This document shows positions 991 through 64,000 of a stretch of 64,000 bases of DNA, piece after piece (the stretch's first letter is position 1; the number at the start of each line of letters is the position of its first letter). Both the position numbers and the translations under genes were made by a program. A model generated the notes under the pieces. It was not told the origin of the DNA. It worked only from the letters and a program-made list of their open reading frames with translations, and did no database searches. The stretch lies in assembly GCA_032718475.1 (NCBI GenBank), contig JAUCBJ010004980.1, positions 1 to 64,000 of the forward strand. The letters run 5' to 3'. Origin of the DNA: Nemertoderma westbladi. Taxonomy: Eukaryota > Animalia > Xenacoelomorpha.

Positions 991-2594
991 TAACACGTTT
1001 TACTGCCTTCATTAAACTGTGTGAACATTATAATTATAAACTGTGGACAGTCAAAACCGCGAATTTAAAATCGCGAAGAATGCGACATTTTCACTTTTCA
1101 TGGTCATAACTTTGAGCAGGCTCAAATGTGACAAAAAAATCCTGATGTTTGTGATTGCTACACATTAGCAAAAGGATAAGTTCCACCTATGTGATCCAAC
1201 CCAACTTGCAAGCGCACGAACATAACAGTATGAGCAGTCATGGGAAATCCTTTGCCTCCTCAGAAAGTCGTAAAATGCTCCATATCCACCCGGCAACTTA
1301 TTCTCTACAAAAAAATATGCTACCTGGCAATTACATGAGAATATGTATGTGTGGTGATCTGAGCTGAAAAGGATTGGGTTTGTTTATGTAAGAATTTGCT
1401 TTAAAGTTGACTACGTTGCCGTGACTATGAATATTTTAAATCAGCAAGTACATTTACTTCAATAATTTAATTATTGAAGTTAAAATTTCATTTAAAATTT
1501 AAAGTTAAGGATTTAATTTAATTGGTTTGAGACAAGGCGCCTCTAGCAGTATACTGATTTTTCTTAATGAATGGTAGAATCTTCCGCAATATTTATGGAA
1601 AATAGAGTTTTTAGGTGTATTACAAAATGTCGTAAATGGACAATATATTTTTACTGTCTATCAATGCTCATGTAAAATTGAAATGTGCATTAAAAAGTGA
1701 ATAGAATTGGACTTTTGTAATAAGTCAGGTATGAAAGCTAATGAGAAGAATACTACTTTTAGTTGTAAGATTGCAAGTAAATGATAGTGATAGGTTCAGA
1801 TTTTCTATTGATGGTGCAAGTATGACAGTTGGTTGCCCCATGAGGCAACCACGTTAGTGGGCCGTCAAGCCAAAAACCTGGTGACTGCTGCTTGGGAAGG
1901 GTGATCTGTGTACGTCATAGTACAGTACAGCAGAGTTCTGTCCCTCCCAACTTATTCTGCCGCTAAGATATTTGCATTAGTTTTAGCTTACAAGCAAAAA
2001 ATAACCTTTTGCATTGACGTATTTACGAAATGAAAAGGATTTATTTATTAACTTTAAAAATTAAGAAATTAATATAAAAAATAAGAAAGGTCAACCATGA
2101 AATTATGACATCATGGATAACTTCTGAATATAAAAATTAATTAATTGGCAAAGATCAGCCACCGTGAGATGTTATCTATGGATATCAATAATATACTGTA
2201 TTATATTATTAATATAATATATAAACTATATTATTAATTAAGCAACTGACTCTTTATAGAGGTAGGTAGTTGTTGTAGGAAGGAGAGACCATCAAAAATA
2301 ATGTAATTCTTCTTCTTGTTTTTATTAGCTCACTCGATAAACCGCCAGATGTAAAAGTTCTGTTTTCGATTGCGGATCAGTTCTTTTAGTGTCTTTTTGT
2401 TGTTAAAGTAGTTTCAGTTTCGTTTACAGCCAGCTTACTGACTTTTCTAGTATATGTAGACTGTACAGTATAAATAGGATGAGAGCAATATATTTATTTT
2501 TCTAGTAAATTGAATTTCTAGGAAGCAAATACCATTTTTTTTTATTACTTAGCCAATGCTATTCAGCAAAGTACGGAAGCCCATAGCGGCCAGG

Positions 2595-3222
2595 GCACAA
2601 ACATTAATGTGGGACACAAACATTAATGAAGGGCACATTAATGAGGGACACAAACATTAATGAGGGACACAAACATTTATGGGGGACACAAACATTAATG
2701 AGGGATACAAACATTAATGAGGGACACACATTAATGAGGGACACAAACATTAACGAGGGACACAAACATTGATTAGGGACACAAACATTAATGAGGGACA
2801 CACATTAATGAGAGACACAAACATTAATGAGGGACACACATTAATGAGGGACACAAACATTAATGGGGGACACAAACATTAATGAGGGACACAAACATTA
2901 ATGAGGGACACAAACATTAATGAGGGACACAGATTAATGAGGGACACAGACATTAATGAGGTACACACATTAATGAGGGACACAAACATTAATGAAGGAC
3001 ACAAATTAATGTGGGACACAAACATTAATGAGGGACACACATTAATGAGGGACACAAACATTAATGAGGGACACACATTAATGAGGGACACAAACATTAA
3101 TGAGGGACACAAACATTAATGAGGGACACAAAGATTAATGAGGGACACAAACATTAATGAGGGACACAAACATTAATGAGGAACACACACATTAATTAGG
3201 GAAACAAACATTAATGAGGGAC
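2595..3222 (+). repeat. 18/20-bp minisatellite (gagggacacaaacattaat), left arm
   Basis: Directly visible tandem array mixing 18- and 20-bp variants. Confidence 0.95.
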
Positions 3223-3794
3223 ATCTTAATAGTTAATAGACACCTTAATAATTTGTCTATGCCTAGGGGCCACACATATGCTTAATCCTGCTCTGGGGGG
3301 ACACCTTAATAAGGGTCAATGCTTCCCAATGGATGAATATTAATAAGGGCGATGGTGATGCTTGCCTTCAGACATTATTAGATATTGATTAGCTGAAAAA
3401 CTACTACCGTGGGAACGTGACCTCTGGTAGAGCGGCGCTGTAGACAATTACAATTCCATGTAGTTGCAGAAGGATGCCTATTAAGCTATATTTATCTTTG
3501 TTGCCGTTGGAGGGTGATAATGTTTACAGTGTGGGATAGGGAAAATGCTACGTACTGGTAGCCGTAATAATGAAACTATTTAAACTATTCAATATAAATC
3601 CGGTGAGGTAGAAATAGTTTTGATGCATTTGTGGTATAAGTTTCTGTGATGGAACTTGTAAACTTGTAAGCATATGTGTGATTTGAAAGGTTTTTATACT
3701 TTAAGTAAATAAATGAGTAAATGGGTTTGTAAGCATATGTGTGGCCCCTAGGCATAGACAAATTTTTAAGGTGTCTTTTAACTATTAAGGTGTC

Positions 3795-4750
3795 ACTCAT
3801 TAATGTTTGTGTCCCTCAATGATGATTGTGACCCTCATTAATGTTTGTGTCCCTCATTAATGTTTGTGTCCCTCATTAATGTTTGTGTCCCTCATTAATG
3901 TGTGTCCCTCGTTAATGTTTGTGTCCCTCATTAATGTTTGTGTCCCTCATTAATGTGTGTCCCTCATTACTGTTTGTGTCCCTCATTAATGTTTGTGCCC
4001 CTTATTAATGTGTGTCCCTGATTAATGTTTGTGTCCCTCATTAATGTTTGTGTCCCACATTCATGTTTGTGTCCCTCATTAATGTTTATGTCCCTCATTA
4101 ATGTTTGTGTCCCTCATTAATGTGTGTCCCTGATTATTGTTTGTGTCCCTCATTAATGTTTGTGTCCCACATTCATGTTTGTAACCCTCATTAATGTTTG
4201 TGCCCCTTATTAATGTGTGTCCCTGATTAATGTTTGTGTCCCTCATTAATGTTTGTGTCCCTCATTAATGTTTGTGTCCCCCATTAATGTGTGTCCCTCG
4301 TTAATGTTTGTGTCCCTTATTAATGTGTGTCCCTGATTAATGTTTGTGCCCCTTATTAATGTGTGTCCTCATTAATGTTTGTGTCCCTCATTAATGTTTG
4401 TGTCCCTCATTAATGTGCGTCCCTCATTAATGTTTGTGTCCCTCAATAATGTTTGTGCCCCTTATTAATGTGTGTCCCTGATTAATGTTTGTGTCCCTCG
4501 ATAATGTTTGTGTCCCACATTTATGTTTGTGTCCCTCATTAATATTTGTGCCCCTTATTAATGTGTGTCCCTCATTAATGTTTGTGTCCCTCATTAATGT
4601 TTGTGCCCCTCATTAATGTTTGTACCCCTTATTAATGTGTGTCCCTGATTAATGTTAGTGTCCCTCATTAATGTTTGTGTCCCTCATTAATGTTTGTGCC
4701 CCTTATTAATGTGTGTCCCTCATTCATGTTTGTGTCCCACATTAATGTTT
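3795..4750 (-). repeat. Same 18/20-bp minisatellite in inverted orientation, right arm
   Basis: attaatgtttgtgtccctc units; this array is longer than the left one. Confidence 0.95.
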
Positions 4751-5464
4751 GAGTCCTGGCCGCTATGGGCTTCCGTAGCCAACCAGACAGCCTATCAGAT
4801 CCTAATTAAAATCTAAGGTTGAAGTTAATATGTGTTTTTTCAATATTAATACTATGAGATAACTTAGGTATTATTTCAGCTAATACGCTCTATCCGGTTT
4901 TAATTACCCGTATGCGTGCGTACCCGAATTAAAGCGCATCGTCCGGTTTTAATTAATGGTACCCGAATTAAAGCGCATTACTTATTAGCTATTAGAGTAT
5001 ATTTTTAATAAAGGCACCTAATACTGTAGTACCAGTTAAATAAATTAGTTTTAAACAACGCACTGAGCCATGGATGACCTCGGGTGTTCTTAGTATTATT
5101 AGAGAGAGATACTTATATAAATTTAGGAAACACCTTGTTTTAGCTGATTACACCCATTTTTAGCTGATGACCCATAATATAGTGTCATTTTCTGATGACA
5201 CGGATTGTATCCCCCCCCCCCCCCCCCAATTGTTAATCCCCTTATTCTATTGTTTCTAGTCCAACAATTTTTCGCGCACCAACCAACCCTATTATTATAC
5301 ACCATGACCCTTAATATATTGTCATTTTCTGATGACACGGTCCCCCCGAAAATTTTTCTATAAATCTTTATCACATTGCTTGAAATTTAAAACACAACTA
5401 GTTCAATTCACCGTGGTTGTTACCGTGAAGACGGAATTTCCGATTTCACCTTTAAATTTTTTTA

Positions 5465-7305: not shown

Positions 7306-7631
7306 AAGTTGGCTTATAGCCCAAATTTATGGCTATAAAATAACTGGAGGCCTAGAAGGCCAGGTATTTTGTACTGCTGTACTGTTATGTTATAGTGTTT
7401 TATTAATTTTTTATTAGTGAATAATAAATACTCTAAAAATACTTTTAAACTCTACTACACACTGACACAATACAGTAGCTTATGCTTTTATGACAGCTTC
7501 CCAGCAATAACCATAAGCCTACTACTCTATTATTGCTGTACTGTATTATGTAAATATTATATTAAGCTAACTACTGTAGGGTATTGGCTAATGAGTAGTC
7601 TAATGTGTGTAGAGATTAGATTCGGATACCA

Positions 7632-8040
7632 TACTACTACTACTAGGATCGGCATGCTGCATTGCAGCTGCATTTTTAAGAATGCTGTGCCGGCTTGTCG
7701 ACAAAATTGCGCCACCACAACTCCCTATCACCCATGACATTTGCTAGATCATCCGCATCTTCAAGGCCAGTGTCCTTTAAGATGCATCTCAAGAAAGAAA
7801 TGGGCTGTCCACCATGCTTATTCACTCCATGAGGCTGCGAAAGCACAATATTATGTACTGGCTGGTACTCATGGCGAAAGCAATGTCCTGCAAAGCGGAG
7901 GCGACTTTGTTCTGGTGTTAAGCTTTGGGGAACCAATGAGACACCTCCAATGTTATATTGTGTCTGGTTGGAGATGTGTGCATTGCACTTAACACAATGA
8001 TCCCGGTGTAGCATTCTTGTGAATGTGCCATCCAGAGACT
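7632..8040 (-). mobile_element. RTE-clade LINE, 5'-truncated 3' end
   Basis: ORF 7676-8083 contains LDGTFTRMLH...RLRFAGHCFR...; (TAG)n tail; near-identical to the copies at 50222 and 62511. Confidence 0.9.
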
Positions 8041-8205
8041 TAAAGTTATTCAGGAAACGACATGCCGATTTCAGGGCGTTCATAACGTATAAAAACAGGA
8101 TATGAGTTAGAAAACAATTGGAGCTGGATTTAACGCCTGTTCGTATATTATTATACTTAAATGTTGCTAGTTCTGTAGTTACTTACATACCATCACCACA
8201 CCGCT

Positions 8206-16050: not shown

Positions 16051-16087
16051 AGATCAATGCTTTGGATAATTTAGTTAGTATTATTAA

Positions 16088-17654
16088 CCCTATTAAACCC
16101 GGGGGGGGGGGGGGGGTGGGGGTCAATATGACCCCCCCCCGTGGTTTTTTTATTATAATTCTGAAACAAACGCAGTTGGGAATCTGAAATTTTATGACTT
16201 TTCCTAAAAATGTATTGTCTTAATGGTAGTGAAAACCGTTTTCAAAAATATTGGGTACTTTTCGAGTTATAGCACCATTTTTTAACCCTACTTTTGGCAC
16301 TTTTTTTGAGACGTTTTTTGAAAATTACATTTCATTAAATATTAATTGTAACATCTCTATTTTTGATTTGCACCGGTTTTTTGGTGTTAGAAATTGGATG
16401 GAATTCATATAAATTGATTTAGAAATTTCAAACTTGTTTTTTTCGATGGGTGCCAAATTTTGGTGCCAGCACCAAATTTTGAAATAAGTCAATTTTGTAA
16501 ATTGATTGTTTGAAACTTGTTTTTTACGCAATTGGGGTTTTTTGAGGTTCTGGATTCGATGAAATATATACGAGTTGAACCAAGCGTATCAAACTTGTAT
16601 TTTTCAGTGCTGTGTGCTAATTTTGGTGCTAGCACGAAATTTTGAAAATCCATTCAATATATAAAATTGCTTGTGACAATTTATTTCTTGCGTTTTAGAG
16701 GTTTATGGCTGTTCTGAATTCAATGGAAAATATAATTATCGAACTTGACATCTCAAACTTGTATTTTTCGGATGTGGGTGCAAAATGTGGTGCTAGCACC
16801 AAATTTTGAAAACCATCAAATATATCAATTGATTGTGTCACCTTGTTTCTTGCGTTATACGGGTTTGTGATGGTTCTGAATTCAATGGAATCAGTAAAAA
16901 TTTCATAAGAGTTCTCAAACTTGTATTTTTCGCCGGTGGGTGAAAATTGTTGTGCCAGCACCAAATTTTGGAAAATATGCAAATTGATAAGTAGATAGTA
17001 TCACCTTGTTTCTTGCGTTATACGGGTTTATGAGGGTCCTGAATCCGATGGAATCAATAAAAACAGCACTGGACATCGCAAACTTGTACTTTTTGGTGAT
17101 GGGTACGAAATTTGGTGCTAGCACCAAAATTTGCTAAATTACGCCGAAAAATACAAGTAGCAATGATCTGGCATATTAGAAATGTATTCCATTAGAATCA
17201 GCGCCCTCGAAAACCTGAAAATGTGAATTTATAGCATCGTATAAGTGAATTAAAAATTTTGTGTTCTAACTGAAAAGTGCTGGTTACTTGTTTTTTTCAT
17301 TTTTTTCCTACGCAGAGAGGACTAAACAGCCATTTATAGTAATCATATCATTTTTAAATATTTTCCAATGTATTTTGCACCCCAAAAAACCTGTATTGAA
17401 AAATAATTAGCCGAAAATGTAACTTTCAAATTTGGTGAAAATTGTGCACTACTTGTAATTTTGGTGCTGCAATATAACCACCCCAGTACATTTTTTCGAA
17501 ATTTTTTTTTTTCGGTCGGATCCAGACATGTGATACCTACGTACAAACAAAAAATCAGACGTTTTCGTAAATATTTGTAGATTTTAGAGGGGGGGGGTCA
17601 ATATGACCCCCTCCCGGTATTTGTACAACATTTTATAGCCCGGTACTAATAGGG
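16088..17654 (+). mobile_element. Non-autonomous piggyBac-type element
   Basis: TTAA|CCCTATTA ... TAATAGGG|TTAA; subterminal gtcaatatgacccc; internal ~160-bp tandem units containing the palindrome tggtgctagcacca. Confidence 0.9.
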
Positions 17655-18351
17655 TTAAATGTGCCGCTGTTAGATTACACTGTTGCTTGAGAAAATATGT
17701 GGTGAAATTAAATCGGGTCTATCTTAACTTATATTAACTCTTCACTGAACTTTGATATATTAGTTTCATTTTAGATTACACTTTTTTATCGAGGACAACC
17801 AACACAACCAACAAGCAACCAAGGAAATTCCCAATAGAAAGGGAATTTTTACAAGTTAAAAGAAGACGGATTACCAATTGATATCATATGTTTTCAAAAA
17901 TATAATTTAAAAATTATAAACTTTTGTTGAAATTTCATAATTAAAATTAACGATCGATCAGTGGATCTCACCCAATAGGCCAATAATATAATTTAATTCA
18001 AGATATTAATAATTTAACTACAGCAGTTGTAGAGTTAACTAAAGGAGTTGTATACTGTGCAGTGCATGAGGAACATACTATGCATTCAGTGCATCACTGA
18101 ATGCTGAATATAATATTTCAACATTTCTGCACTGGCATTGCCTAACCAATACCACATATGGATATTGGATACATAACGGAGAAACTATATTATAAGTTGG
18201 AGGATAAAGGGCATGGACTTTTTGAAAATAATTGCAAATTACTTGCTTTAATATTTTGGTAATAGATGTGTAGATTACGTGATTTAGAGAGTTAGTATTA
18301 ACTGTAGGCCTACTTGACATTAGCTTAAGTTGTAGGCTCTTCTGTATATTA

Positions 18352-26142: not shown

Positions 26143-27502
26143 GTAAACTGCGAGAAGACTCATTTCATTCCTAGATGTTAGTGAGGGTGTCACTGAGAGC
26201 AATTGTCGACTGCACTCTTGAAACTCATTGATGATCTTAACCTCGACCCCAACAAGATACGTAGCCAATGCTACGACGGAGCTGGAAACATGTCTGGTGC
26301 TATTAAAGGAGTTGCGTCCCGAATTCAGTCTCTATATCCGAAAGCTCTTCCGTTTTGGTGCACCACACATCAACTGAATCGGTGCATTGTCCAATACTGT
26401 GTGATACCCGCCATACGCAACATGATGTCCGATGCTGATTAGCTAGTAAAGTTCTTCAATTGGTCCCCTGCCAAAGAAAATGCGCTCATGTTAAACACAC
26501 CTAAAGAAAAGCAGTTGAAGCTAAAATCCTTATGCCGGACACGCTGGGTGGAGAGACATGTGGCATTCGATACACTAATAAATCTTCTACCTCACATCAT
26601 AACCACCTTGGAAGACTTTGCAACAAAACCGAGCACTGGAAAGCCTGGAATGCCATCTGCATCATCTCTTGTAAAGACCGCCACTGACTTTGGATTCATT
26701 GCAGCCCTCTTTATTGCCCACGGTTGTCTTTTTTATATTAAAGGCATTACCAAGTCTCTGCAGGAACGGTCCCTCGATGTCGGACGTGCCTTCAATCAAG
26801 TGTCTCTTGTAAGAGAAACTCTCTCTGATGTTCGCAACAACATTGATGAATTCCACAATGACCTATTCGATGAAGCAAGAAAGATTGCCGATTCAGTTGA
26901 CATTCCTGTGGAGAAGCCCTGGACATGTATCAGACAAACCAAGCGCAGTAATGTACCCACCGAGGATCCTAGTGAATATTATCGGAGATCCATTATGATT
27001 CTGCTGATTGATCACTGAATATTAGAAATGGGAACTCGGTTCACATGCTTACAGGAGAGTGCGACTATGGGATGTACACTTGTTCCTTCCATAATGAAAG
27101 CCAGCCCAACCATCGATAAACACAACACGACACGTCGACAAGCACTGCCTTGCAAGTGAGATCCACCAGTGGTTCAAGATGTGGAAAGGTCGTGAAGATG
27201 CACCAACAATGATTGTTGATGCAGCAAATGCATGTGACGAGGATTTTTACCCCAATGTGAAGCGTGTTCTACAAATAAGTGCATTGTTCCCGGTAACCAG
27301 TTGTGAGTGTGAGAGGTGCATCAGTGTAATCCGTCTCCTCAAAACTTACCTACAGTCAACTATGGGCCAAGACAGATTTACAACTCTTGCACTAATGTAT
27401 GTCCATCGGGAAATTGACATAAACCACGAAGGTGTTGTTAAAGAGATTAGTAGGAGACAGCCATGCCGTATTCTTCTACCAAATATTATTTTCGAAACAT
27501 AG
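26143..27502 (+). pseudogene. hAT transposase (THAP12/ZMYM1-like), with stops and frameshifts
   Basis: QCYDGAGNMSG, CTTHQLN, CRTRWVERH, PVTSCECERCIS..LKTYLQSTMGQDR dimerisation motif; hAT-type end ctggatccgcccctg at 28620-28634. Confidence 0.92.
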
Positions 27503-28136: not shown

Positions 28137-28299
28137 AATATTATGTAGTTTTAATCGGTTTTTTTTGTGTATAAATAGTTATAACTGTTACCTTCTGATT
28201 CATTTGGTTTTAAAAGAAAATATTTGACACAAAAAGAACACCAAAAATATTTTTGGAATTTTTTATAAATCAATTATTGTGGGGTGGGTGACGGCGAAT

Positions 28300-28572
28300 A
28301 AATATATATGTTATAGTACGTTATGATAATGCTCTCCATAGCTAAATATATCAACCGCCTCTATTGGGGCTCGAACCCGGTACCTAGGTGTCAAACTTCC
28401 AGTTATCATCAGCCGAGTATGTGTCCTAAGACCACTGAGCTACCAGGGTGGTAGAACATTTATTCGCTATGGAGTGGGGTATAATTGGGTATCGGGTTCG
28501 AGCCCCAATAGGGGCAGTTGATATATTTCGCTTTGGAGAGCATTATCATAATGTACTATAACATTTATATTT
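28300..28572. mobile_element. Foldback tRNA-derived SINE-like element with internal hammerhead (copy 1)
   Basis: Inverted arms; the minus strand has box A TAGCTCAGTGG (28432-28442) and box B GGTTCGAGCCC (28367-28377); the right arm repeats box B and the tail on the plus strand. Confidence 0.8.
28375..28418 (-). ncRNA. Type I hammerhead ribozyme motif (GAAA mutated to GACA)
   Basis: actcgg CTGATGA t aact gga agtt t GACA cctagg TA ccgggt; 6-bp stem I and palindromic stem III. Confidence 0.7.
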
Positions 28573-28649
28573 TTGGAATTTGCTCGCCCCTGATTTATTC
28601 CCCCCCGGCTAGGTGACCTCTGGATCCGCCCCTGACTCTAGTCATATAT

Positions 28650-30271
28650 CAGTTGGTCTCGTTTACGATTTTGAGTTTAAGTCTACACTGGCACAGTTAT
28701 AAGTGCATCGGATGCAAAAAAATTAAAAAGCAAGATGTAGAAAATCATCATGGGATGGTCTCAACAATTACAATCCAAAATAGTACTTTAGTTACTGACC
28801 CAGATACTCCAAAACATCCACATTTTTGTCAACCACTCACAAAAGCCAAGACCATTGTTAAAGAAATCGATTGGACGAACACGTGTGGAAATATGTGATG
28901 GAAAGAGCCCAAAAGTAGCATATAATGAAAGTCTTTCTTCTATTACCAGCATGGATACGTCGAACTTAGAAAAACACTTAATTGAACAGTTGATGCCCCA
29001 GTATAGCTCTGTTAAATCGAGTTACATCGAACAAGACAGTCATCTATGCCATCGTGTTTATGTGTCCATGATATACCACCCATGTTGAAATTGTCCCTCC
29101 ATGGCAGATTTGCAGATCCTGTAGATGCGTTTTTCGGTGAATCGTTTCTCATTTATGAGAGTGTTGAGCCGAATCCGCCCCTTTTGATACTAGGAACAAC
29201 GGAAACGCTAGGTTGGGGATATTATAGGCATATTATATGTGATGGAAACTTTAAGTTTCAGCCAACTAAAGCCCATCCTTTCCTTCAACTTTATACAATC
29301 CATGGATTCGTTGCTGGTGAATCGATTCCGCTGTTGTATGTCTTAATGTCCTATAAGAATGAAGTTAAATACAAGGTCGCTTTTAATTTCATTCGCGAGA
29401 AGGTCATGGAATGTTTTGGAGATCCTGAAAATATGTCCACCGCAGTGTGGCATTTCGATTATGAAGATGCTGCTATGAACGCCATTCGAGATGTATTTCC
29501 ATACTGCATTGTGACAGGGTGTACATTTCATTATTCAAAAGCTATCAATACAAAGATAGTTCTGAAGAAAGCTTATGCTGACATGTCCATTGTTAGGAAA
29601 TGGTTCTGCGGTGGAATGGTGAGTGTGGTATTTGGTTAACTTGTTTCTGATGAACCAGTGACACTGGTTGCCCAAATCAATGCACAGCTTCAAGATTTCA
29701 TTGGTTACTACTGCTGGTGGTTATGACCTGAATTTATCACCATATGGAATTACTTTGATAATGATGGACCTCGCACAACAAACCTCGCACAACAAACCAC
29801 GCTGAAGGCTTCCACAATGGCCTTCGTTAGCACTTTAATCGACCACACCCCCGTTTGAGTGGGTTTCTGCACAAAGCGCAGCATTGGAACAATTCGTATT
29901 GCATTCGCGGACGCCGCCAGTTGGATGATGGTACTGTACTGCTGTGGCGCGGCCTCGACTACAACTATACGTACGTATCAACAAAGAGATAGAGGCAAGG
30001 AAAACCAACTTCAATCTGAAGATTCAGAATGCACTAACCGCGAAAAGAAAATGCAATCGATATATGATAGGATGTTTATCCTTATTTGGATAAAATGCAA
30101 CAACTTTTAGGAAATTTAATCGTATTTAACGTTGACATTGCCAATATCAATAGTTAATAATTAATTGTGCAATATTTTGATATTGTTTGTTTTCTAATTG
30201 TTTGATATAATTGTTATCATATCATTTAGTTCCTGATATGCTATGTAGATAACGATTTTTATGATGGGGGT

Positions 30272-30603: not shown

Positions 30604-30628
30604 CAGTGGCGGATCTAGGATTTCTCCA

Positions 30629-42865: not shown

Positions 42866-43126
42866 TCCAAATATAGAAGTGATTGAGATAATTCTACTTT
42901 AGAATTGGAAATGCGTTATTTACTTGCACTTTTCATCCATTGGTTTGTCGCTTTCAAATCCAAGGAAGTTTTCTGAAATATATTCACTACTGTTATGAGG
43001 AAGGGGCAGTAGTAGTCTTCTGTTCTGTCTTTTGTTTCGTAATGGATACGGGCTTCGACCAGGGACAAATGGCGAGAACGCTTTTTTTGATAATGCCATT
43101 TCAACAAGTTTTTTCCCCCGATTTAA

Positions 43127-44685
43127 CCCTATTAGTACCGGGCTATAAAATGCTGTACAAATACCGGGAGGGGGTCATATTGACCCCCCCCCTCTAAAAT
43201 CTACAAATATTTACGAAAACGCCTGATTTTTTGTTTGTACGTAGGTATCACTTGTCTGGATCCGATCGAAAAAAAAATTTTCGAAAAAATGTACTGGGGT
43301 GGTTATATTGCAGCACCAAAATTACAAGTAGTGCACAATTTTCACAAAATTTGAAAGTTACATTTTCGGCTAATTATTTTTCAATACAGGTTTTCTGGGG
43401 TGCAAAATACATTGGAAAATATTTAAAAATGATATGATTACTATAAATGGCCGTTTAGTCCTCTCTGCGTAGGAAAAAAATGAAAAAAACAAGTAACCAG
43501 CACTTTTCAGGTAGAACACAAAATTTTTAATTCACTTATACGATGCTATAAATTCACATTTTCAGGTTTTCGAGGGCGCTGATTCTAATGGAATACATTT
43601 CTAATATGCCAGATCATTGATACTTGTATTTTTCGGCGTAATTTTGCAAATTTTGGTGCTAGCACCAAATTTCGTACCCATCACCAAAAAGTACAAGTTT
43701 GCGATGTCCAGTGCTGTTTTTATGGATTCCATCGGATTCAGGACCCTCATAAACCCGTATAACGCAAGAAACAAGGTGATACTATCTACTGATAAATTTG
43801 CATATTTTCCAAAATTTGGTGCTCGCACAACAATTTTCACCCACTGGCGAAAAATACCAGTTTGAGAACTCTTATGAAATTTTTACTGATTTCATTGAAT
43901 TCAGAACCATCACAAACCCGTATAACGCAAGAAACAAGGTGACACAATCAATTGATATATTTGATGGTTTTCAAAATTTGGTGCTAGCACCACATTTTGC
44001 ACCCACATCCGAAAAATACAAGTTTGAGATGTCTAGTTCGATAATTATACATTCCATTGAATTCAGAACAGCCATAAACCTCTAAAATGCAAGAAATAAA
44101 TTGTCACAAGCAATTTTATCTATCGAATGAATTTTCAAAATTTCGTGCTAGCACCAAAATTTGCACACAACACCGAAAAATACAAGTTTGATACGCTTGG
44201 TGCAACTCATATATATTTCATCGAATCCAGAACCCCAAAAAAACCCAATTGCGTAAAAAACAAGTTTCAAACAATCAATTTACAAAATTGACATAATTCA
44301 AAATTTGGTGCTGGCACCAAAATTTGGCACCCACCGAAAAAAACAAGTTTGAAATTTCTAAATCAATTTATATGAATTCCATCAAATTTCTAACACCAAA
44401 AAACCGGTGTAAATCAAAAATAGAGATGTTACAATTCATATTTAATGAAATGTAATTTTCAAAAAAAGTGCCAAAAGTAGGGTTAAAAAATGGTGCTATA
44501 ACTCAAAAAGTACCCAATATTTTTGAAAACGGTTTTCACTACTAGGAAGACAATAGATTTTTAGGAAAAGTCATAAAATTTCAGATTCCCAACTGCGTTT
44601 GTAAAAGATTCCCAACTGCGATTATAATAAAAAAACCACGGGGGGGGGGTCATATTGACCCCCCCCCCCCCCGGGTTTAATAGGG
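43127..44685 (-). mobile_element. Non-autonomous piggyBac-type element, inverted near-identical copy of 16088-17654
   Basis: TTAA|CCCTATTA ... TAATAGGG|TTAA; the same shadow ORFs appear on the opposite strand. Confidence 0.92.
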
Positions 44686-46104
44686 TTAAAGCCATTTATG
44701 AAATGTACATCAAATGAAAAATTAATATAGAATTATAATTCACTTAAAGTAATTAAAACTGTGGGTTTAAAATACCTTGAGCATATATAAATTTACATTT
44801 AAATAATAATATACACTTTAAAAATGTAAACGTTATTTGTAGAATTATTATTAATTTCACCAATTTACAATCTAAATATGCGAAACTATAATTTGTGAGC
44901 TCTCAACAATATAAAGTGAGGAAATATTCTAATAACGATTGTCTGCGAATCCTTTTTCAGTTTTCCATTTCACCTTCCTTATTCGTTACAGTCAGGGAAT
45001 AATTTGTAGTTTGCATAATTTACATTTAGTCTAGTTAGGACTACTATGTTGGACGGTGTTATGCAGAAATGTGTCAACCCACACAAACACCATTTTGAGA
45101 AAATTGAGTTTAAAGTTTCTGACCTCAAATTAATTGCGTTTTAGGGTATTTGCAGTCGTACATTATACGTTATCAACTTATATGATCTGAATGCTTAACT
45201 ACAGTAATGCTTAGGAAGAATATTAATTACATAAATTTCCTTTATTTATTTGTATGGAATTAATTTCGCACTACTACATCTTCAGGGCGACATATTTTTC
45301 AGCTTTATATCGCAGTGCGACATTATTTCTCAGTTCTGTATATCCCTACGCCATACATTTTACATACTTGGTGACTGCGTTACGTCGATAACAACCATAT
45401 CAACCATATCGATACAGGTTCATGTAACTAGCTATAGTAGTGCCCAAATAATGCAATATATCTGCTAGAATACATAGACTCGACATAGAATACTAGAATA
45501 CATATTATAATGTCGCCGTTGCAATATATTGAAATACATTGTATGGATGTCCAGGTAAGAAACCATTACGTTTCCATGACATCACACAGTTATCGGGTTA
45601 GGACTTTGTATAGAGTACTTTCAAAGGCTATCTAAAAGGAAAGTAATAAGTTAGGACTTTAGCGCTCCCGGAGTTAATGCAAAAGCTTTTATTGTTAAGT
45701 GTGAACACAATTTGCTAAACGGAGGGGTATTCGCAATCAATATTCGGCGAGTTAGCGTATTAGGGTATTTGCGGTCTTACAATAATTTATCACTTAGTAC
45801 AAATGTAATATAAGTGTTTAAATGTGTTTGTAAGTTAGCATTATGGCCATTCGATACTCTTGAGTGTTTAAGTGTGTTTGAGAAGTACCAATTCCCATAA
45901 TGCCGCTAAGGGGGGCCAAGTTTTTCATACACATGACACACTGGACTGCAAAAGTGGTAAAAAGCTAACTTGTTGGAAATTGTCTAAAAAACGTTTTGAC
46001 AAAGTTTCAGATTGCAAGGACCACGAGTTAGCACTTTGAGTTAGCACTTTGGAAAAGTTAGCACAATAGCGGAAAAAGAGCTTGCAAAGTTAGCTCTTTG
46101 GTAT

Positions 46105-46676
46105 ATTTGCCAACACACACATGCCAACTACACATGCCAACTACACACATATGCCAACTACACACACGTGCCAACTACACACACATGCCAACTACACATG
46201 CAACTACACACACATGCCAACTACACACACACATGCCAAATACACACATATGCCAACTACACACATATGCCAACTACACACACGTGCCAACTACACACAC
46301 ATGCCAACTACACATGCCAACTACACATGCCAACTACACATGCCAACTACACACACATGCCAACTACACATACATATGCCAACTACACACATATGCCAAC
46401 TACACACATGTGCCAACTACACACATGTGCCAACTACACACACATGCCAACTACACACACAACTACACACACATGCCAACTACACATGCCAACTACACAC
46501 AAATGCCAACTACACATACATATGCCAACTACACACATATGCCAACTACACACATGTGCCAACTACACACATGTGCCAACTACACACACATGCCAACTAC
46601 ACACACATGCCAACTACACACACATAAAAAATCAGATTTTATGTGTAAGGTTGACTGGCACTTGTGGGCTTCCGTA
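46105..46676 (+). repeat. 13-17-bp minisatellite (tgccaactacacacaca) ending in a TIR-like terminus
   Basis: Array 46105-46625 followed by GGGCTTCCGTA at 46666-46676, identical to the end of the 2572-4777 element. Confidence 0.85.
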
Positions 46677-47204
46677 GAATCCAATCACATTTCTGCCCAT
46701 TTACTATTACTGGGTGATACTTACTGTCAACAGTCACCATCATACCGATACCACTACACACTACACCTCTATTACATTACCTGCAAGTTAGTTACAATAT
46801 TTTAAAATTGTTTAGTTCATTTACTTTCGGTTTAGTGTTTAGTACGTGTAGCAGTTTAAAATTCTAAATAGCTGTTTTGATTTTGTTATAATCAGCCGAT
46901 TTTCCTGAATTATTATACAGTAGGCTGTAAGATGCGATTGCCTGAAATCTAAGTTTAGCTGCACCGGTACTTTTATTTATTACATGGGGAAAAAAGTATA
47001 ACTTTTTTCACTATTCTCGGGGTATTTTATTTTATTGAACTGCATTATTTTACTACATAATATTGCTTCCATAGTTACTGCGATTCAAATTACTGTACTC
47101 TTCAACTGCTGTTGCTGCCTTACTAAATGTTAAATAATTTAGTGATCTAGAATATTTATTAAGTAACTAGAGATCCGCTTAACAACACAAACCATTTTTG
47201 GATA

Positions 47205-47561
47205 TTAAGTATATAATGTAGTAGGACAATATAATAATGCTCTCCATAGCGAATAATATCAACCGACCCTCTATATTAGGGCTCGAAGCCGGTACCTAGG
47301 TTTCAAACTTCCGATTATCATCAGCCGGGTGTGTGTACTGAACTACCAAGACGGGTGAATAATTCGCTAGGGAGTGGGATATCATCTAGGCCGACTAAGC
47401 ACTCAAAGGAATGTACAAATTCTCAAAAATAGCGAATTCTTCACCCATCCTGGTAGCCGGAGGTTTGAAACTAGGTACCTGGTTCGAGCCCCGATAGGGT
47501 CGGTTGATATTTTTCGCTATGGAGAGCATTATCATATTGTCCTACTACATTATATACTTAA
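47205..47561. mobile_element. Foldback tRNA-derived SINE-like element with internal hammerhead (copy 2)
   Basis: Arms ~47205-47369 and ~47430-47561; homologous to 28300-28572; box B GGTTCGAGCCC at ~47481. Confidence 0.82.
47289..47328 (-). ncRNA. Type I hammerhead ribozyme motif, intact core
   Basis: ccgg CTGATGA taatcggaagttt GAAA cctagg TA ccgg; GUA cleavage triplet and palindromic stem III ACCTAGGT. Confidence 0.75.
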
Positions 47562-48594
47562 ATTCTCCGTCACTCACCCCACAACAGTTCATTTATTATT
47601 ATTAATATTGGATATTGAGTTCCGTTTTGGAGTTCGCCTTGCTGCAGACACTAAAGTTGCAATACCTTTTCAGTGTGTGAATGGATTTTGCTCAAATTAC
47701 GTGCAAACCTTTTCTACTTCGATGCTCTTTCAACACAAGCAATAAAATTTAAGAAATTCCACCACAAATATTTTATTTTACCTTTTTTCGCCGGGAAAAA
47801 AGTAAAATCAATGAAATCCTATGGGCTATGGGAAGAAAAGAGAAACTTCTTCTCCCGATTTTGGGGTATATTCTTGCGAAAAAGTAACAATTTAAGAATA
47901 AAATCTATATTAGAACTGCGAAATCGAAATGTGTATCGTAATAACATCACCCATCATTCCGAGATTAGATTATCACATTTAGCAGTTTGATTCGTTTGAA
48001 TCTGATTCGATTCCAGCGTTGAATTTGTTTTATTTCACAGCTTTTTATAATACAATGGCAAGTTGATTACTAATGTGGCTAAGGGTTCCAAGGCAGTATA
48101 AATTGTCGGAAATGTTGTGAACTGGTAGGATCATTGAATTAATTATTAGTAAATTACCAGTGCAATGAAGTTGTTTTTATATAATAGGCCTATAAATGTA
48201 CAGCATTTACTTATCATTCTGTACCTACCAAATTACATGAAAATTTATTATAGTAATTATTATGGTACTTATTTATGCTAGTCCTATTATTTTTTATTAT
48301 CTTTATTAACACAGTTAGACTAGATAGTCGTAAAATTTCAACATCAAACAGATAAAATAAGCGGGAAGTTCAAACTGAAATTAGAAAGAAATTGAAACTG
48401 TACCGGTATTTAAAATTCAAAAGCAACGTTACATTAATTTCCTAACTATTAGTTGTATCAAAGTTAATTAAAATGATTTAAAATGATTTAAAAATAATAT
48501 AAAAACATGAGAACTAAAGTAAAATGTTACTATGAGAGCTACTGTAAATGAAAGTAGAAGTAAAGCACCAAGCTCCAGTAAAGCTGCACCTACA

Positions 48595-49090: not shown

Positions 49091-50221
49091 GTTTTACTAG
49101 TGTTTTCCTAATTCAGAATTAGCCATTAATAAGTGAGAATGACTGTCAATATATATATTATAGCAACACGAAAAAACAAAACCATGTTAAGATTTTTTCT
49201 ATTGGGGTTTACCTGGTCGCTGATTTCATTTCTGAGGTCAGTTTTCACATTTTAATGAAATATAGTTAGTCTGTATTTCTCTTTCTGTCGGTGTTTCTGA
49301 CTAACCGACAATCTGTCCATCAAATATAAGAAAATGGCACACCATCTAGGAAAAGGTTTCCTAGTCGAATAATTCATTTCGAGAGTCAGATTTAAGATTT
49401 CATGACTTTCCAAATTGTCTGTCAGGCTATCCGTTATATTTTGACGGAGATAATGACAGGCACAGAAAAGACGAAGCCAAATTTGAATACCAGCCCCACA
49501 TCAGAAATGATGTCACGTACCAAGGAACCTCATTTAGGACATTTTTAGACAGATAGTATGACTGCAAAACGGTTTTCATATTTGGAATCTTGATAAAAAA
49601 CTACTCTAGATGAAATAAAAAAAAAATGAAACAAAATTTGAAAAAAATAAAAAAAATGTGAAAGCCAGTAACCCCCCCCCCCCCCCCTGTCTATACTTAT
49701 ATATTAATTGAACTTGTGTCATCACACAGGCATTAAACTTGTAGCAGGTGAGGCAACTTCCCTGTGGCATTCCAATAATGGCTACCAATAATTTTCCTTA
49801 TCCAATTTTCAAAAATATTGTTCTATTCTTTATTGTATATTCTATGACAGTCAATAAATACTATATAAGTATTTGTGATATATAATTTAGAAGGCCACAG
49901 AGGTCTGGGGCCATAATAAACATACAGTGAATTAAAGGACAAAATAGTAAAAATTGACTATAAAATCTAGTCATTAAATTTTTTGTTATTTTTTAGTTTT
50001 TTTCAGATTGTACCTGCAGATGCATTTAAGTAGTGATTTGTAATAACGCAATAACATGGCACCCTCCCTCACACAAAGTGTGTCTATAACATAACTGACC
50101 CCCTCACTCGAGGGCGTCAGCAATTAGTAGAAACGGCATCATATCAGTGATTAATCAGATTTGTTTTGCATTATTTCCGTATAATAATTATGATAATTCT
50201 AGAATCCAGCATTATTGTTTG

Positions 50222-50795
50222 GTTCGAATACGTAAGGGAAAGACATGGGCAGCCTTGAATAGGCTTTCCAGGATTTGGAAGTCACCGATAATTAATCGGA
50301 AACTTAAGGTCCGATTATTTAGAGCAGCAGTAGTTCCAGTACTCCTCTACGGGAGTCCATGCTGGGCTCTAACTGCTGAGGACACCAAATCTCTGGATGG
50401 CACATTCACAAGAATGCTACGCCGGGTTCATTGTGTCAAGTACAATGCACACATCTCCAACCATACACTATATAACATTGGAGGTGTCTCATTGGTTCCC
50501 CCAAGCTTGACACTAGAACAAAATCGCCTCCGCTTTGCAGGACATTGCTTTCGCCGTGAGGACCAGCCAGTGCATAATCTTGTACTTTGGCAGCCTCATG
50601 GAGTGAATAAGCATGGTGGACAGCCTATGACTTTCTTGAGACTCATCTTAAAGGACACTGGCCTTAAAGATGCGGATGATCTAGCAAATGTCATGGGTGA
50701 TAGGGAGTTGTGGCGGTGCAATTTTGTTGACAAGCCGGCACAGCATTCTTAAAAATGCAGCTGCAATGCAGCATGCCGATCCTAGTAGTAGTAGT
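50222..50795 (+). mobile_element. RTE-clade LINE, 5'-truncated
   Basis: RIRKGKTW..KVRLFRAAVVPVLLYGS..RLRFAGH; (TAG)n tail; flanked by gtttggtt on both sides. Confidence 0.92.
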
Positions 50796-51644
50796 TTGGT
50801 TAATTCTTTGTAAAATAATTATTGGGATTAACATCATATATATATGCACATATTATGATAACAATAAAGTAATAGGAACGCATTTTAAACAAACATGTTC
50901 AGCATGATCCGGTCTCTTGAATATAATTTTGGGTTGAACAATCATTTAATCATCATTTAATTATGAAGGGACACAATGATGACTACATACGTTTGAACAG
51001 ATAGGAACATGTTGATTCTCTGTTTCCAATTAAATTTACTTGCTTGATATTGGTCTGTCAGAAATATATTTCGCTCAACCCAAAATTATGCACATATTAT
51101 GTATATGGTCCCTCATATACAGTATGATCTGTCACCTGTGTTCACATACAGTATAATAAGCATAATGTCAATTTCTTTGGTTATATTTCTTTAGTAATAA
51201 ATTTATTTAGTTATAATCAGCATTAATGAATATTCCATTGTCATATGCAGCAAACATTCTGTCCATTATTTCCTCGCTGTTACTTTCACCGGAAAATTTA
51301 TAACATAGTACATAAAGGTTGTTCGCAAGCGCGTCAAAGCGCGTCAAAATTGACATGAAAAGAAACATCAACATATCTACAATCTTCAAAACTGTTTGGC
51401 CTATATTTCGCCTCTGGTACCATCGCAATTGAGTTTCTGGAAACAACAATGATTAATATAATTTCTGCAGCAAACATGATTAGTAGTAATGTTGTGGTTG
51501 AAAGTGACACAAAGGAGAGGGTTAGTATATATACAAAAACAATATCATATACCAAATATACGAAATATTAAAAATAAATGTGGGTAGCTGGAATCAACCC
51601 GTAACCCGACCTACTTAAAAGAATAATATACAACAGTTTAACAA

Positions 51645-62237: not shown

Positions 62238-62512
62238 GTCGGTCGACCCTGTTGCGTGTCCATCCCACCCTTCCCAAACCCCGAAGGGATCGGTCATCAG
62301 GAAAGCGGTATGGCTTGGCTAAGGGTCAGTCAAGTCGGTAGACCCGGTTGCGTGTCCGTCCCACCCTTCCCGAACCCCGAAGGGATCGGTCATCAGGAAA
62401 GCGGTACGGCTTGGCTAGGGGTCTGTCGAGTCGGTGGACCCATTTGCGTGTCCGTCCCACCCTTCCCGAACCCCGAAGGGATCGGTCATCAGGAAAGCAG
62501 TACGGCTTGGCT
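62238..62512. repeat. GC-rich 96-bp tandem repeat (~3 copies)
   Basis: gcgtgtcc occurs at 62254, 62350 and 62446; the array is interrupted by the RTE tail. Confidence 0.92.
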
Positions 62513-64000
62513 ACTACTACTAGGATCGGCATGCTGCATTGCAGCTGCATTTTTAAGAATGCTGTGCCGGCTTGTCAACAAAATTGCACCGCCACGACTC
62601 CCTATCACCCATGACATTTGCTAGATCATCCGCATCTTTAAGGCCAGTGTCCTTTAAGATGCGTCTCAAGAAAGTCATGGGCTGTCCACCATGCTTATTC
62701 ACTCTATGAGGCTGCCAAAGTACAAGATTATGCACTGGCTGGTTCTCACGGCGAAAGCAATGTCCTGCAAAGCGGAGGCGATTTTGTTCTAGTGTCAAGC
62801 TTGGGGGAACCAATGAGACACCTCCAATGTTATAGTGTGTCTGGTTGGAGATGTGTGCATTGTACTTGACACAATGAACCCAGCGTAGCATTCTTGTGAA
62901 TGTGCCATCCAGAGATTTGGTGTCCTCAGCAGTTAGAGCCCAGCGTGGACTCCCGTAGAGGAGTACTGGAACTACTGCTGCTCTAAATAATTGGACCTTA
63001 AGTTTCCGATTAATTCTCGGTGACTTCCAAATCCTGGAAAGCCTATTCAAGGCTGCCCATCCATGCCTTTCCCTTACGTATTCGAAGGTCCTCACCTGAC
63101 TTCCGGATCCATGATCCCAGGTAACAGAAGTCGTCCACATGCTCAAGCATACCATCCTTTGAGCTTATGCTCATCCGATCAGAGACTTGCTGAGGACTTT
63201 CAAAGTTAACTGTCAGAATTTTGGTCTTTCTGGAGTTAATAAAAAGACCAACACTAGAAGCAGCATGTTCTAATGAGCCGAGGAGCCGTTGGGCTCCCTC
63301 TAATGATTCTGAGAGTACTCCTAAGTCATCAGCAAAGTCTAGATCAGTTAGGTACTTGGCAGGATTTCCTCGACTTCTGGAGCCAGTAGGTGGAGTTATC
63401 ATCACCCCATCTTCATTATGATGATCTAAGGACATGCGTAGAACATAGTCAACCACAATAATGAACAAGAATGGTGCAAGTGTGTCTCCTTGGAGAACGC
63501 CCCATAATACTTCAAATGGTTCTGTGTCACCGTCAACAGTAGACACAAATGTTGTCGAACCATCGTATACTGATCTGATTGCTGCAATAATTTCATCAGG
63601 AATCCCATATAATGAAAGTATGCTGAACATACGTGAGCGAGAGACTGAATCAAAGGCCTTGAAGAAGTCAACAAAGATAACAGCCAGATGCCTGTCTTTC
63701 TTTTTTGATAATTCTTCAATTATCCTTCTAAGTGCCAAAATGGGCTCCATGGTCCCACGACCTTTACGGAACCCATTCTGATTTCCATGGAGCAGTCTCT
63801 CAATGGGATCCCTGATGCGATTTAATAGAATCCTATTGTATAGCTTTGCAGCAATCGAGATCAATGAGATTCCCCGAAAAGAACCATAGAGTGTTAGGTT
63901 GCTCTTCTTGGGAACTGGCACCAACTTATTTGTTTTCATTTCTTGTGGGACTCTTGTTGTACGGTACATGTCTACTATGATGGGATATATGAGCTTTAAA
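62511..64000 (-). mobile_element. RTE-clade LINE with RT domain (continues beyond the window)
   Basis: FRGISL, QNGFRKGR, FVDFFKAFDSV, GVLQGDTLAPFLF, DLDFADD, FCYLGS; a 4-nt duplication frameshift at ~63060; (TAG)n tail. Confidence 0.95.

What the first reader, a model, noticed from the sequence alone, without database searches (positions are those of the whole stretch)
28300..28572. Second copy of the tRNA-hammerhead foldback shows covariation and a different truncation
Seen: stem II here is aact/agtt, whereas the right arm of the 47 kb copy has ..cc gga ggtt, a compensatory change. Stem I extends to 6 bp (actcgg/ccgggt). The core is mutated to GACA. The right arm starts just before box B, unlike the 47 kb copy. 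Within each locus the two arms share terminal variants absent from the other locus. An inner inverted repeat (ctccatagc.aata / tattcgctatggag) brackets the tRNA-ribozyme module. Inference: both arms were copied from one RNA at each insertion event, rather than being fixed TIRs of a MITE.
Basis: partly seen in the sequence, partly recalled or inferred. Interest (0 to 1): 0.72.

Follow-up and report, generated by a model that had tools for sequence, protein, structure and literature searches.

The report
Hammerhead-in-tRNA repeat with Penelope-type insertions
This is one copy of an abundant short repeat in which a hammerhead ribozyme motif sits inside a tRNA-like sequence; it lies as a back-to-back pair with a short extra tail and a duplicated target site, the footprint likely left by Penelope-like jumping-gene enzymes.

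Summary
The foldback is real and larger than reported. It spans 28262-28572 between exact 15-bp direct repeats (28247-61, 28567-81). One arm has a 38-nt tail that the other lacks. The 47 kb copy has the same layout with a different duplication of about 13 bp. The unit is a tRNA-like body (boxes A and B, ARAGORN pseudogene call) with a type I hammerhead motif nested between the boxes and a palindromic stem III. Public contigs of the same species label show a very abundant family. All 12 of 12 scored junctions have different inner breakpoints, so it is not a MITE. Head-to-head arms, a one-sided 30-40 nt tail and a target duplication are the published signature of Penelope-like elements (PLEs). 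The claimed stem II covariation is not supported: the family majority is a C·A mismatch, both cited pairs are separate minority changes, and one lies in an arm whose ribozyme core is deleted. GACA is a rare variant (0.4% or less). Both arms come from one source lineage, but one RNA molecule is not shown. No partner RT was found. Verdict: new variant of known PLE/Sm-alpha-like elements.

The parts
28247..28261 (.). target-site duplication, left copy (15 bp)
   Evidence: exact repeat of 28567-28581; these are its only 2 occurrences in the window
28262..28299 (-). 38-nt AC-rich 3' tail, present on this arm only
   Evidence: matches 47562-47596; 8 contigs in X2 and X5 run into unlike flanks at 28263 (table 7)
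28300..28356 (-). 3' domain of the unit; the family majority has a run of five T at 28344-28348, broken in this copy
   Evidence: (28347 T>A in 99.4% of depth)
28357..28449 (-). tRNA-like body
   Evidence: ARAGORN 'possible pseudogene' at 28357-28448 with threshold lowered to 90%, 0 of 500 shuffles called; not called at default threshold; no Rfam tRNA hit
28432..28442 (-). box A-like motif
   Evidence: only A+B pair in the window; 0 of 200 shuffles (box consensus recalled)
28367..28377 (-). box B-like motif; overlaps the 3' strand of hammerhead stem I
28375..28418 (-). type I hammerhead motif: 6-bp stem I, CTGATGA core, short stem II, GACA (family GAAA), palindromic 8-nt stem III, predicted cut after 28381
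   Evidence: no Rfam hammerhead hit
28450..28485 (-). 5' leader, an imperfect inverted copy of the 3' domain (the inner inverted repeat)
28488..28572 (+). tail-less inverted arm, starting at about the predicted cleavage site and ending at the tail boundary
   Evidence: junction present without differences in an X1 contig (record 7; X1 may be the window's own source)
28567..28581 (.). target-site duplication, right copy; first 6 bp also fit the arm end (microhomology)
47194..47206 (.). second locus: target duplication, left copy (about 13 bp, 2 mismatches to the right copy)
   Evidence: empty-site forms of the host repeat join 47192-47194 to 47604-47607
47205..47392 (-). second locus: full-length tail-less arm, GAAA intact, rare change in box B/stem I
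   Evidence: (47288 G>C in 99.8% of depth)
47393..47428 (.). second locus: filler between the arms, at single-copy depth
   Evidence: table 2 (depth 25-35 in X1)
47429..47603 (+). second locus: tail-bearing arm with a deletion after 47456 that removes most of box A, stem I 5' strand and the CTGATGA core
47604..47616 (.). second locus: target duplication, right copy

Best explanation
The two arms are inverted copies of one roughly 230-nt repeat unit, a tRNA-like body with a hammerhead motif nested between boxes A and B, and they were likely written into a staggered DNA break by the reverse transcriptase-endonuclease of a Penelope-like element (PLE). Shown: head-to-head arms with 3' ends outward, a 35-42 nt tail on one arm only at both loci, 13-15 bp target duplications, variable inner breakpoints, and rare variants shared by the two arms of a locus. 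Inferred: the enzyme nicks both strands of an AT-rich target. One 3' end primes reverse transcription at the far edge of the tail, the other about 38 nt further in. Both cDNAs stop at variable points and are joined, with filler or microhomology. The templates come from one source gene, either one RNA read twice or two RNAs; pairing through the palindromic stem III could bring two together. The unit is a pLTR-type end. I put 0.5 on it being the stub of a protein-coding PLE whose end repeat holds the tRNA, 0.4 on a non-coding SINE-like passenger, 0.1 on other. This copy's ribozyme is predicted to be dead (GACA).
For: Layout at both window loci. Both tail-less arms stop within 2 nt of the same boundary. 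Exact 15-bp duplication at 28 kb, composition-based chance about 2e-6 with 10 nt slack at each end. Empty-site forms at 47 kb. 12 of 12 distinct junctions; 3 of 24 arm ends lie at the tail boundary, i.e. tail-only arms. Published PLE signature: inverted 5'-truncated pLTR, 30-40 bp tail at one end, 8-10 bp TSDs (PMC3846280; PMC8557442). A purified PLE protein cuts and extends both strands at ATT and starts internally on the RNA, and the tail lies between its two start sites (PMC11167929). Similar spacing: there the start lies 111-118 nt into an ORF that begins in the hammerhead, cut site at 26; here the tail boundary is 110 nt from the ATG in the core, cut site at 29. The hammerhead has the extra nucleotide after A9 and the palindromic stem III described for PLE ribozymes (PMC4209133).
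Against: No PLE protein was found. There is no RT/GIY-YIG hit among the 25 of 33 window ORFs scanned or by motif scan, no genome is held, and the 41-position peptide profile had 0 hits in 1.84 billion proteins (a short, weak query). The open frame is weak evidence (P=0.09 for 43 stop-free codons; the 28 kb arm has a stop inside it, also present in its partner arm). The typical G10.1-C11.1 pair is absent. The duplications (13-15 bp) are longer than the 8-10 bp examples read. The 47 kb copy ends in a short TTA-like run, as LINE-driven SINEs can (recalled). One X5 contig holds a head-to-head joint (47385 to 47523) at depth 932, which may mean a fixed junction amplified as DNA. A 15-letter match arises in 336 of 20000 random window pairs 320 nt apart, a count that includes tandem arrays. 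Junctions come from short contigs; only 15 of 18 and 15 of 38 joints were shown.
Confidence: 0.75

Rival explanations
1. An ordinary LINE-driven tRNA SINE that carries a hammerhead (like Sm-alpha), with inversions made by L1-style twin priming.
For: tRNA-like head with boxes A and B; long variable target duplications; short simple-repeat end at 47597-47603; LINE fragments in the window.
Against: The second priming site is the same at both loci and arms overlap by 82 nt or more; in twin priming as I recall it the site is scattered and overlaps are small. Copies reach about 55 nt upstream of the tRNA start. The majority has five T 8 nt after the tRNA end, so a plain polymerase III transcript would likely lack the tail.
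Confidence: 0.1
2. PLE system, but the inversion comes from self-priming foldback of one template, as proposed for rotifer Penelope, not from priming at both target ends.
For: Proposed in PMC3846280 for head-to-head structures; explains variants shared by both arms; the unit has an inner inverted repeat able to fold back.
Against: That model rests on palindromes at the junction. Neither window junction is a palindrome: 28 kb is asymmetric (arm 5' ends about 105 nt apart in unit coordinates) and 47 kb has a 36-nt filler.
Confidence: 0.09
3. A MITE or foldback DNA transposon whose terminal inverted repeats derive from an old tRNA-hammerhead retrocopy.
For: Terminal inverted arms; DNA transposase fragments nearby (hAT, MULE); one joint at depth 932 in X5.
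Against: 12 of 12 junction pairs differ; the ends are asymmetric by the tail; duplication length and sequence differ between loci; arms resemble their own partner more than other loci.
Confidence: 0.04

Closest known systems
Penelope/Poseidon-type PLE insertions (Adineta Pen2a, PMC3846280; Poseidon_Ac, PMC11167929; overview PMC8557442)
   Same: Head-to-head inverted end repeats, one-sided 30-40 nt tail, target duplication, AT-rich target, 5' truncation, type I hammerhead about 80-90 nt upstream of the inner start site.
   Different: No ORF between or beside the arms at either locus; the repeat is built on a tRNA-like body with polymerase III boxes; duplications are 13-15 bp against 8-10 bp in the passages read.
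Schistosome Sm-alpha / Sj-alpha elements (via PMC6765202 and PMC2770079; the primary paper PMC108972 was not held)
   Same: tRNA-related, SINE-like, very high copy, hammerhead plus polymerase III promoter.
   Different: The review describes a promoter followed by the hammerhead, often in tandem arrays. Here the ribozyme lies between boxes A and B and uses the T-arm strand as stem I, and both loci are inverted pairs with a PLE-type tail. I could not check the Sm-alpha layout in the primary paper.
Metazoan non-LTR retrozymes (PMC7229834; bioRxiv 10.64898/2026.07.22.740005)
   Same: Non-coding unit of 170-400 nt, type I hammerhead, longer TSDs, proposed PLE partner.
   Different: Defined by head-to-tail tandems and circular RNAs. 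No tandem was seen in the window or among the 15 joints shown. The preprint's text has no occurrence of 'tRNA' or 'polymerase III'.
Cassandra, Helenus, Ajax (small-RNA-derived sequence inside LTRs of non-autonomous LTR elements; PMC10886601)
   Same: A polymerase III gene-derived segment embedded within a terminal repeat rather than at the 5' end.
   Different: LTR/integrase system with direct LTRs; 'hammerhead' occurs only in a reference title and 'Penelope' not at all.

Membership tests
Penelope-like element (EN+) | ORF with PLE-type RT and GIY-YIG endonuclease | tested here: inconclusive
   None at either locus or among 25 of 33 window ORFs; peptide search 0 hits; the rest of the genome is not held.
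Penelope-like element (EN+) | Inverted 5'-truncated end repeat, head-to-head | tested here: met
   Both loci and 10 contig junctions.
Penelope-like element (EN+) | 30-40 nt tail at one end only | tested here: met
   38 nt at 28 kb; 35-42 nt at 47 kb.
Penelope-like element (EN+) | Target-site duplication at an AT-rich site | tested here: met
   15 bp exact; about 13 bp with empty-site support.
Penelope-like element (EN+) | Partial head-to-tail tandems | tested here: inconclusive
   None among the shown joints within the unit; 3 and 23 joints were hidden, and contigs collapse tandems.
Type I hammerhead ribozyme | Core CUGANGA, GAAA, UH and stems I-III | tested here: met
   Met in the family majority; this copy has GACA; descriptor hit with the relaxed core only.
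Type I hammerhead ribozyme | G10.1-C11.1 pair closing stem II | tested here: not met
   A-U or U.U at that place in both intact arms; no Rfam hammerhead hit at E up to 10.
Type I hammerhead ribozyme | Self-cleavage | not testable with these tools
   Only a hint: 5 of 24 arm 5' ends lie within 4 nt of the predicted site (P=0.002); 3 of 20 without the two loci like the reference (P=0.04); biased by the reference.
tRNA-derived SINE | tRNA-related region with boxes A and B | tested here: met
   (0 of 200 and 0 of 500 shuffles); Rfam and default ARAGORN negative.
tRNA-derived SINE | Element begins at the tRNA 5' end | tested here: not met
   A family-wide leader of about 55 nt lies upstream in full-length copies.
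tRNA-derived SINE | Polymerase III transcription | not testable with these tools
   Needs RNA data or an assay.
tRNA-derived SINE | 3' end shared with a LINE partner | tested here: inconclusive
   The tail matches nothing else in the window; genome not held.
Non-LTR retrozyme | Tandem units each with a hammerhead; circular RNA | tested here: inconclusive
   Both window loci are inverted pairs, not tandems; tandems elsewhere and RNA circles could not be examined.
MITE | Fixed symmetric TIRs, shared interior, fixed-length TSD | tested here: not met

The most novel reading that the evidence does not exclude
A hammerhead ribozyme built out of a tRNA itself, carried by a Penelope-mobilised element. 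The CTGATGA core sits where an anticodon loop could lie and is flanked by a 4-bp stem in the family majority. The cleavage triplet and stem III 3' strand occupy the five variable-loop positions, and stem I pairs with the T-arm strand (register; it needs 4 extra CA-repeat letters, a 3-nt duplication and a 12-nt insert, so it is a post hoc fit). The module has its own promoter boxes and a five-T stop, so it could make a short polymerase III RNA that pairs through the palindromic stem III with the long template and feeds two RNAs to one break.
Probability: 0.15. Interest if true: 0.8.

Novelty: new variant of a known kind. Interest (0 to 1): 0.5.

Why it matters
How PLEs make their inverted-plus-tail insertions is named as an open problem (PMC8557442), and whether they mobilise short hammerhead RNAs in trans is still a hypothesis (PMC7229834; bioRxiv 10.64898/2026.07.22.740005). 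An abundant 230-nt unit with readable tails, duplications and subfamily markers allows a direct genome-wide test of one template versus two, and is a minimal substrate for the in vitro system. My ten literature searches listed no paper that, by title, abstract or the passages read, describes a tRNA-derived unit with this insertion signature or a hammerhead splitting boxes A and B. The library lacks most subscription papers, Repbase and the primary Sm-alpha paper, so this is weak evidence of novelty.

Tried and rejected
No whole genome is held. Collection scans for further copies: viral contigs 0 and 0; prokaryote genomes 0; metagenomes 5 hits, all 5 limited to the 20-24 letters of the pattern, treated as chance. 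Rfam found no tRNA or hammerhead family at either locus; default ARAGORN found nothing. ARAGORN at 70% threshold is uninformative (63 of 500 shuffles; 209 calls in the window), and the 47 kb left arm was not called at 70-90% without an intron option. No RNA holder was listed, which says nothing on expression. Pfam and representative searches with the unit's peptide were blank. Whole-module folding is only modestly better than shuffles (z -1.79 and -1.31), and the minimum-energy folds of the whole module are not the hammerhead; the tails fold to nothing. No empty-site form of the 28 kb locus was among the 15 of 18 joints shown. Opposite-strand joints 47289/47482, 47293/47473 and 47297/47472 were rejected as the same unit laid across two arms. 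One search used a wrong mirror constant for the junction table; one search replaces that part. Stem II covariation was rejected (see observation check). A leader motif search found no third copy in the window. PMC108972 and PMC5785218 were not held.

Full report
Setting. The window is repeat-rich eukaryotic DNA of 37% G+C, with hAT and MULE transposase fragments and two DUF6451 hits that I read as LINE remnants. No genome is held. Two loci of the element exist in the window, A at 28.3 kb and B at 47.4 kb, and blastn finds no third. To see more copies I laid public contigs of the same species label on both loci (five runs, three studies; X1, X3 and X4 are one sample and may be the window's source). 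Summed depth in X1 reaches about 200,000 over box B against 16-63 on the flanks of A. The tool warns that this is no copy number; I read it only as 'very abundant, probably thousands'.

The unit. Read on the minus strand at A it runs: leader (28485-28450), tRNA-like body (28449-28357), 3' domain (28356-28300), tail (28299-28262). Box A and box B motifs (consensus recalled) occur together once in the window and in 0 of 200 shuffles. ARAGORN calls a possible pseudogene at 90% of its threshold, with 0 of 500 shuffles called. Default ARAGORN and Rfam are blank. Between the boxes lies a type I hammerhead motif, 28375-28418: 6-bp stem I, CTGATGA, one extra U, short stem II, GACA, an 8-nt palindrome as stem III, and GUA. 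The descriptor, written after seeing the motif, hits nowhere else in the window, and 1 of 60 shuffled windows has a hit. Closing stem III within one molecule gains nothing (-3.6 against -3.9 kcal/mol), while the palindrome gives -11.4 as a duplex. This is the dimer-type architecture described for metazoan and PLE hammerheads (PMC4209133, part 1 of 4 and passages). The usual G10.1-C11.1 pair is missing. The family majority has five T 8 nt after the tRNA end, a likely polymerase III stop (established knowledge). Full-length copies extend about 55 nt upstream of the tRNA. The RNA that moves is therefore likely longer than a plain polymerase III product.

Stem I, GACA, the start of the right arm, the shared terminal variants and the inner repeat are all there. 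GACA is rare (0.4% or less of depth). The only listed polymorphism above 10% of depth in stem I (28416; 15% in X1, 31% in X2) switches U.G to C-G and keeps the pair, which is mild real support for that stem. The stem II covariation fails. The majority has C at 28401 (98.7%) and no change at 28397 reaches 5% in any of four runs, so the common state is a C.A mismatch. The T here looks like CpG decay (inference), and the G at 47 kb lies just behind a deletion that removed the catalytic core.

The insertion. At A the arms are head to head with 3' ends outward, flanked by an exact 15-bp repeat that occurs only there in the window. The left arm carries the 38-nt tail; the right arm stops at the tail boundary and shares 6 letters with the duplication. 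At B the layout is mirrored: a full-length tail-less arm, a 36-nt filler at single-copy depth, then a tail-bearing arm with an internal deletion. B sits in another abundant repeat whose empty copies join 47192-47194 to 47604-47607 in X1, X2 and X5, which gives a duplication of about 13 bp with 2 mismatches. The duplications end in ATT-like letters, as the preferred cut of the anole PLE protein does, but in AT-rich DNA this is weak. Arms are 91.5% and 88.8% alike within loci and 76-82% between, and they share rare letters.

Junctions in other copies. One search showed 15 of 18 joints. I dropped 4 (two deletions within an arm, one same-arm continuation, one ambiguous match to the inner repeat) and merged 2 rows as one locus, leaving 10. 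I added locus A and one look-alike contig (records 6, 15, 23). Two ends were shifted by eye for letters lying between the sides, one was estimated from the indel table, and the direction of opposite-strand joints was checked against table 8 for three of four. All 12 of 12 pairs differ; 3 of 24 ends lie at the tail boundary and 5 of 24 within 4 nt of the predicted cleavage site (3 of 20 without the two loci like the reference). The last is a hint, biased by the reference, that some templates were cleaved RNAs. Against uniformity, one X5 contig holds a head-to-head joint at depth 932, unexplained.

Mechanism. Priming from both 3' ends of a staggered break gives exactly this geometry (follows from strand polarity). 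The published PLE signature is an inverted 5'-truncated repeat with a 30-40 bp tail at one end and a TSD (PMC3846280 and PMC8557442, passages). The anole PLE protein cuts and extends both strands, is predicted to be a dimer, and starts inside the RNA, with the tail lying between two start sites; its hammerhead was dispensable in vitro (PMC11167929, parts 1-2 of 4). The spacing from the ATG in the core to the tail boundary is 110 nt here and 111-118 there. I infer PLE-driven double priming at 0.75. One RNA versus two is open.

Stub or passenger. An earlier unchecked AI note on another genome (e1-8669850) reported a tRNA-headed end repeat of a coding PLE, which made me test that here. For a stub: depth falls steeply towards the 5' end, the spacing resembles the anole element, and one frame from the core ATG stays open through the tail at B (P=0.09). 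For a passenger: both 28 kb arms have a stop in that frame, contigs branch soon after the leader and diverge after the tail, and the peptide has no hits. I give 0.5 and 0.4.

Comparison. It works like a PLE end repeat and resembles Sm-alpha in parts (PMC6765202 and PMC2770079, passages) and non-LTR retrozymes (PMC7229834, passages; bioRxiv 10.64898/2026.07.22.740005, part 1 of 5 and passages). It cannot be filed as an autonomous PLE (no ORF seen), a standard SINE (leader upstream of the tRNA), or a MITE. PMC10886601 was read in passages. PMC108972 and PMC5785218 were not held. No supplements were opened; Sm-alpha and PLE sequences in them could bear on the novelty claim.

Verdict. A real, ordinary-aged insertion with a predicted dead ribozyme, from an unusual family. 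New variant of a known kind; interest 0.5.

Noticed in passing
window 28137-28344: Contigs in X1 and X3 hold an allele or paralog of locus A with the left flank and a 55-nt deletion (28289-28343) in the tail-bearing arm; the left flank is itself low-copy.
   Followed up: no
window 28582-28636: The right flank is moderately repeated and ends in a motif like the inverted end at 30604, so locus A may sit inside or beside a small DNA transposon; no left partner found by one motif scan.
   Followed up: partly
window 28242-28257: The target at locus A overlaps a perfect 16-bp palindrome.
   Followed up: no
window 47130-47193 and 47604-47700: Locus B interrupts another very abundant repeat of unknown kind.
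   Followed up: partly
window 62238-62525: Three 96-nt tandem units next to a LINE-like fragment; the minus strand has CTGATGA followed by a UUCG-capped hairpin but no GAAA or stem I. No informative Rfam hit.
   Followed up: partly
window 26443-27502 and 29016-29639: hAT and MULE transposase fragments flank locus A at about 0.7 and 0.4 kb.
   Followed up: partly
window 16084-17660 and 43121-44670: Two inverted copies (95-97%) of a 1.5-kb element with internal 163-bp subrepeats and G-rich inverted ends, probably a non-autonomous DNA transposon.
   Followed up: no
window 2559-4756 and 46064-46641: 17/19-bp minisatellite arrays in opposite orientation, and a 13-19 bp CA-rich array.
   Followed up: no
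window 7628-8182, 50099-50800, 62511-63164: Three closely related (93-98%) 3' fragments of one LINE-like family.
   Followed up: no
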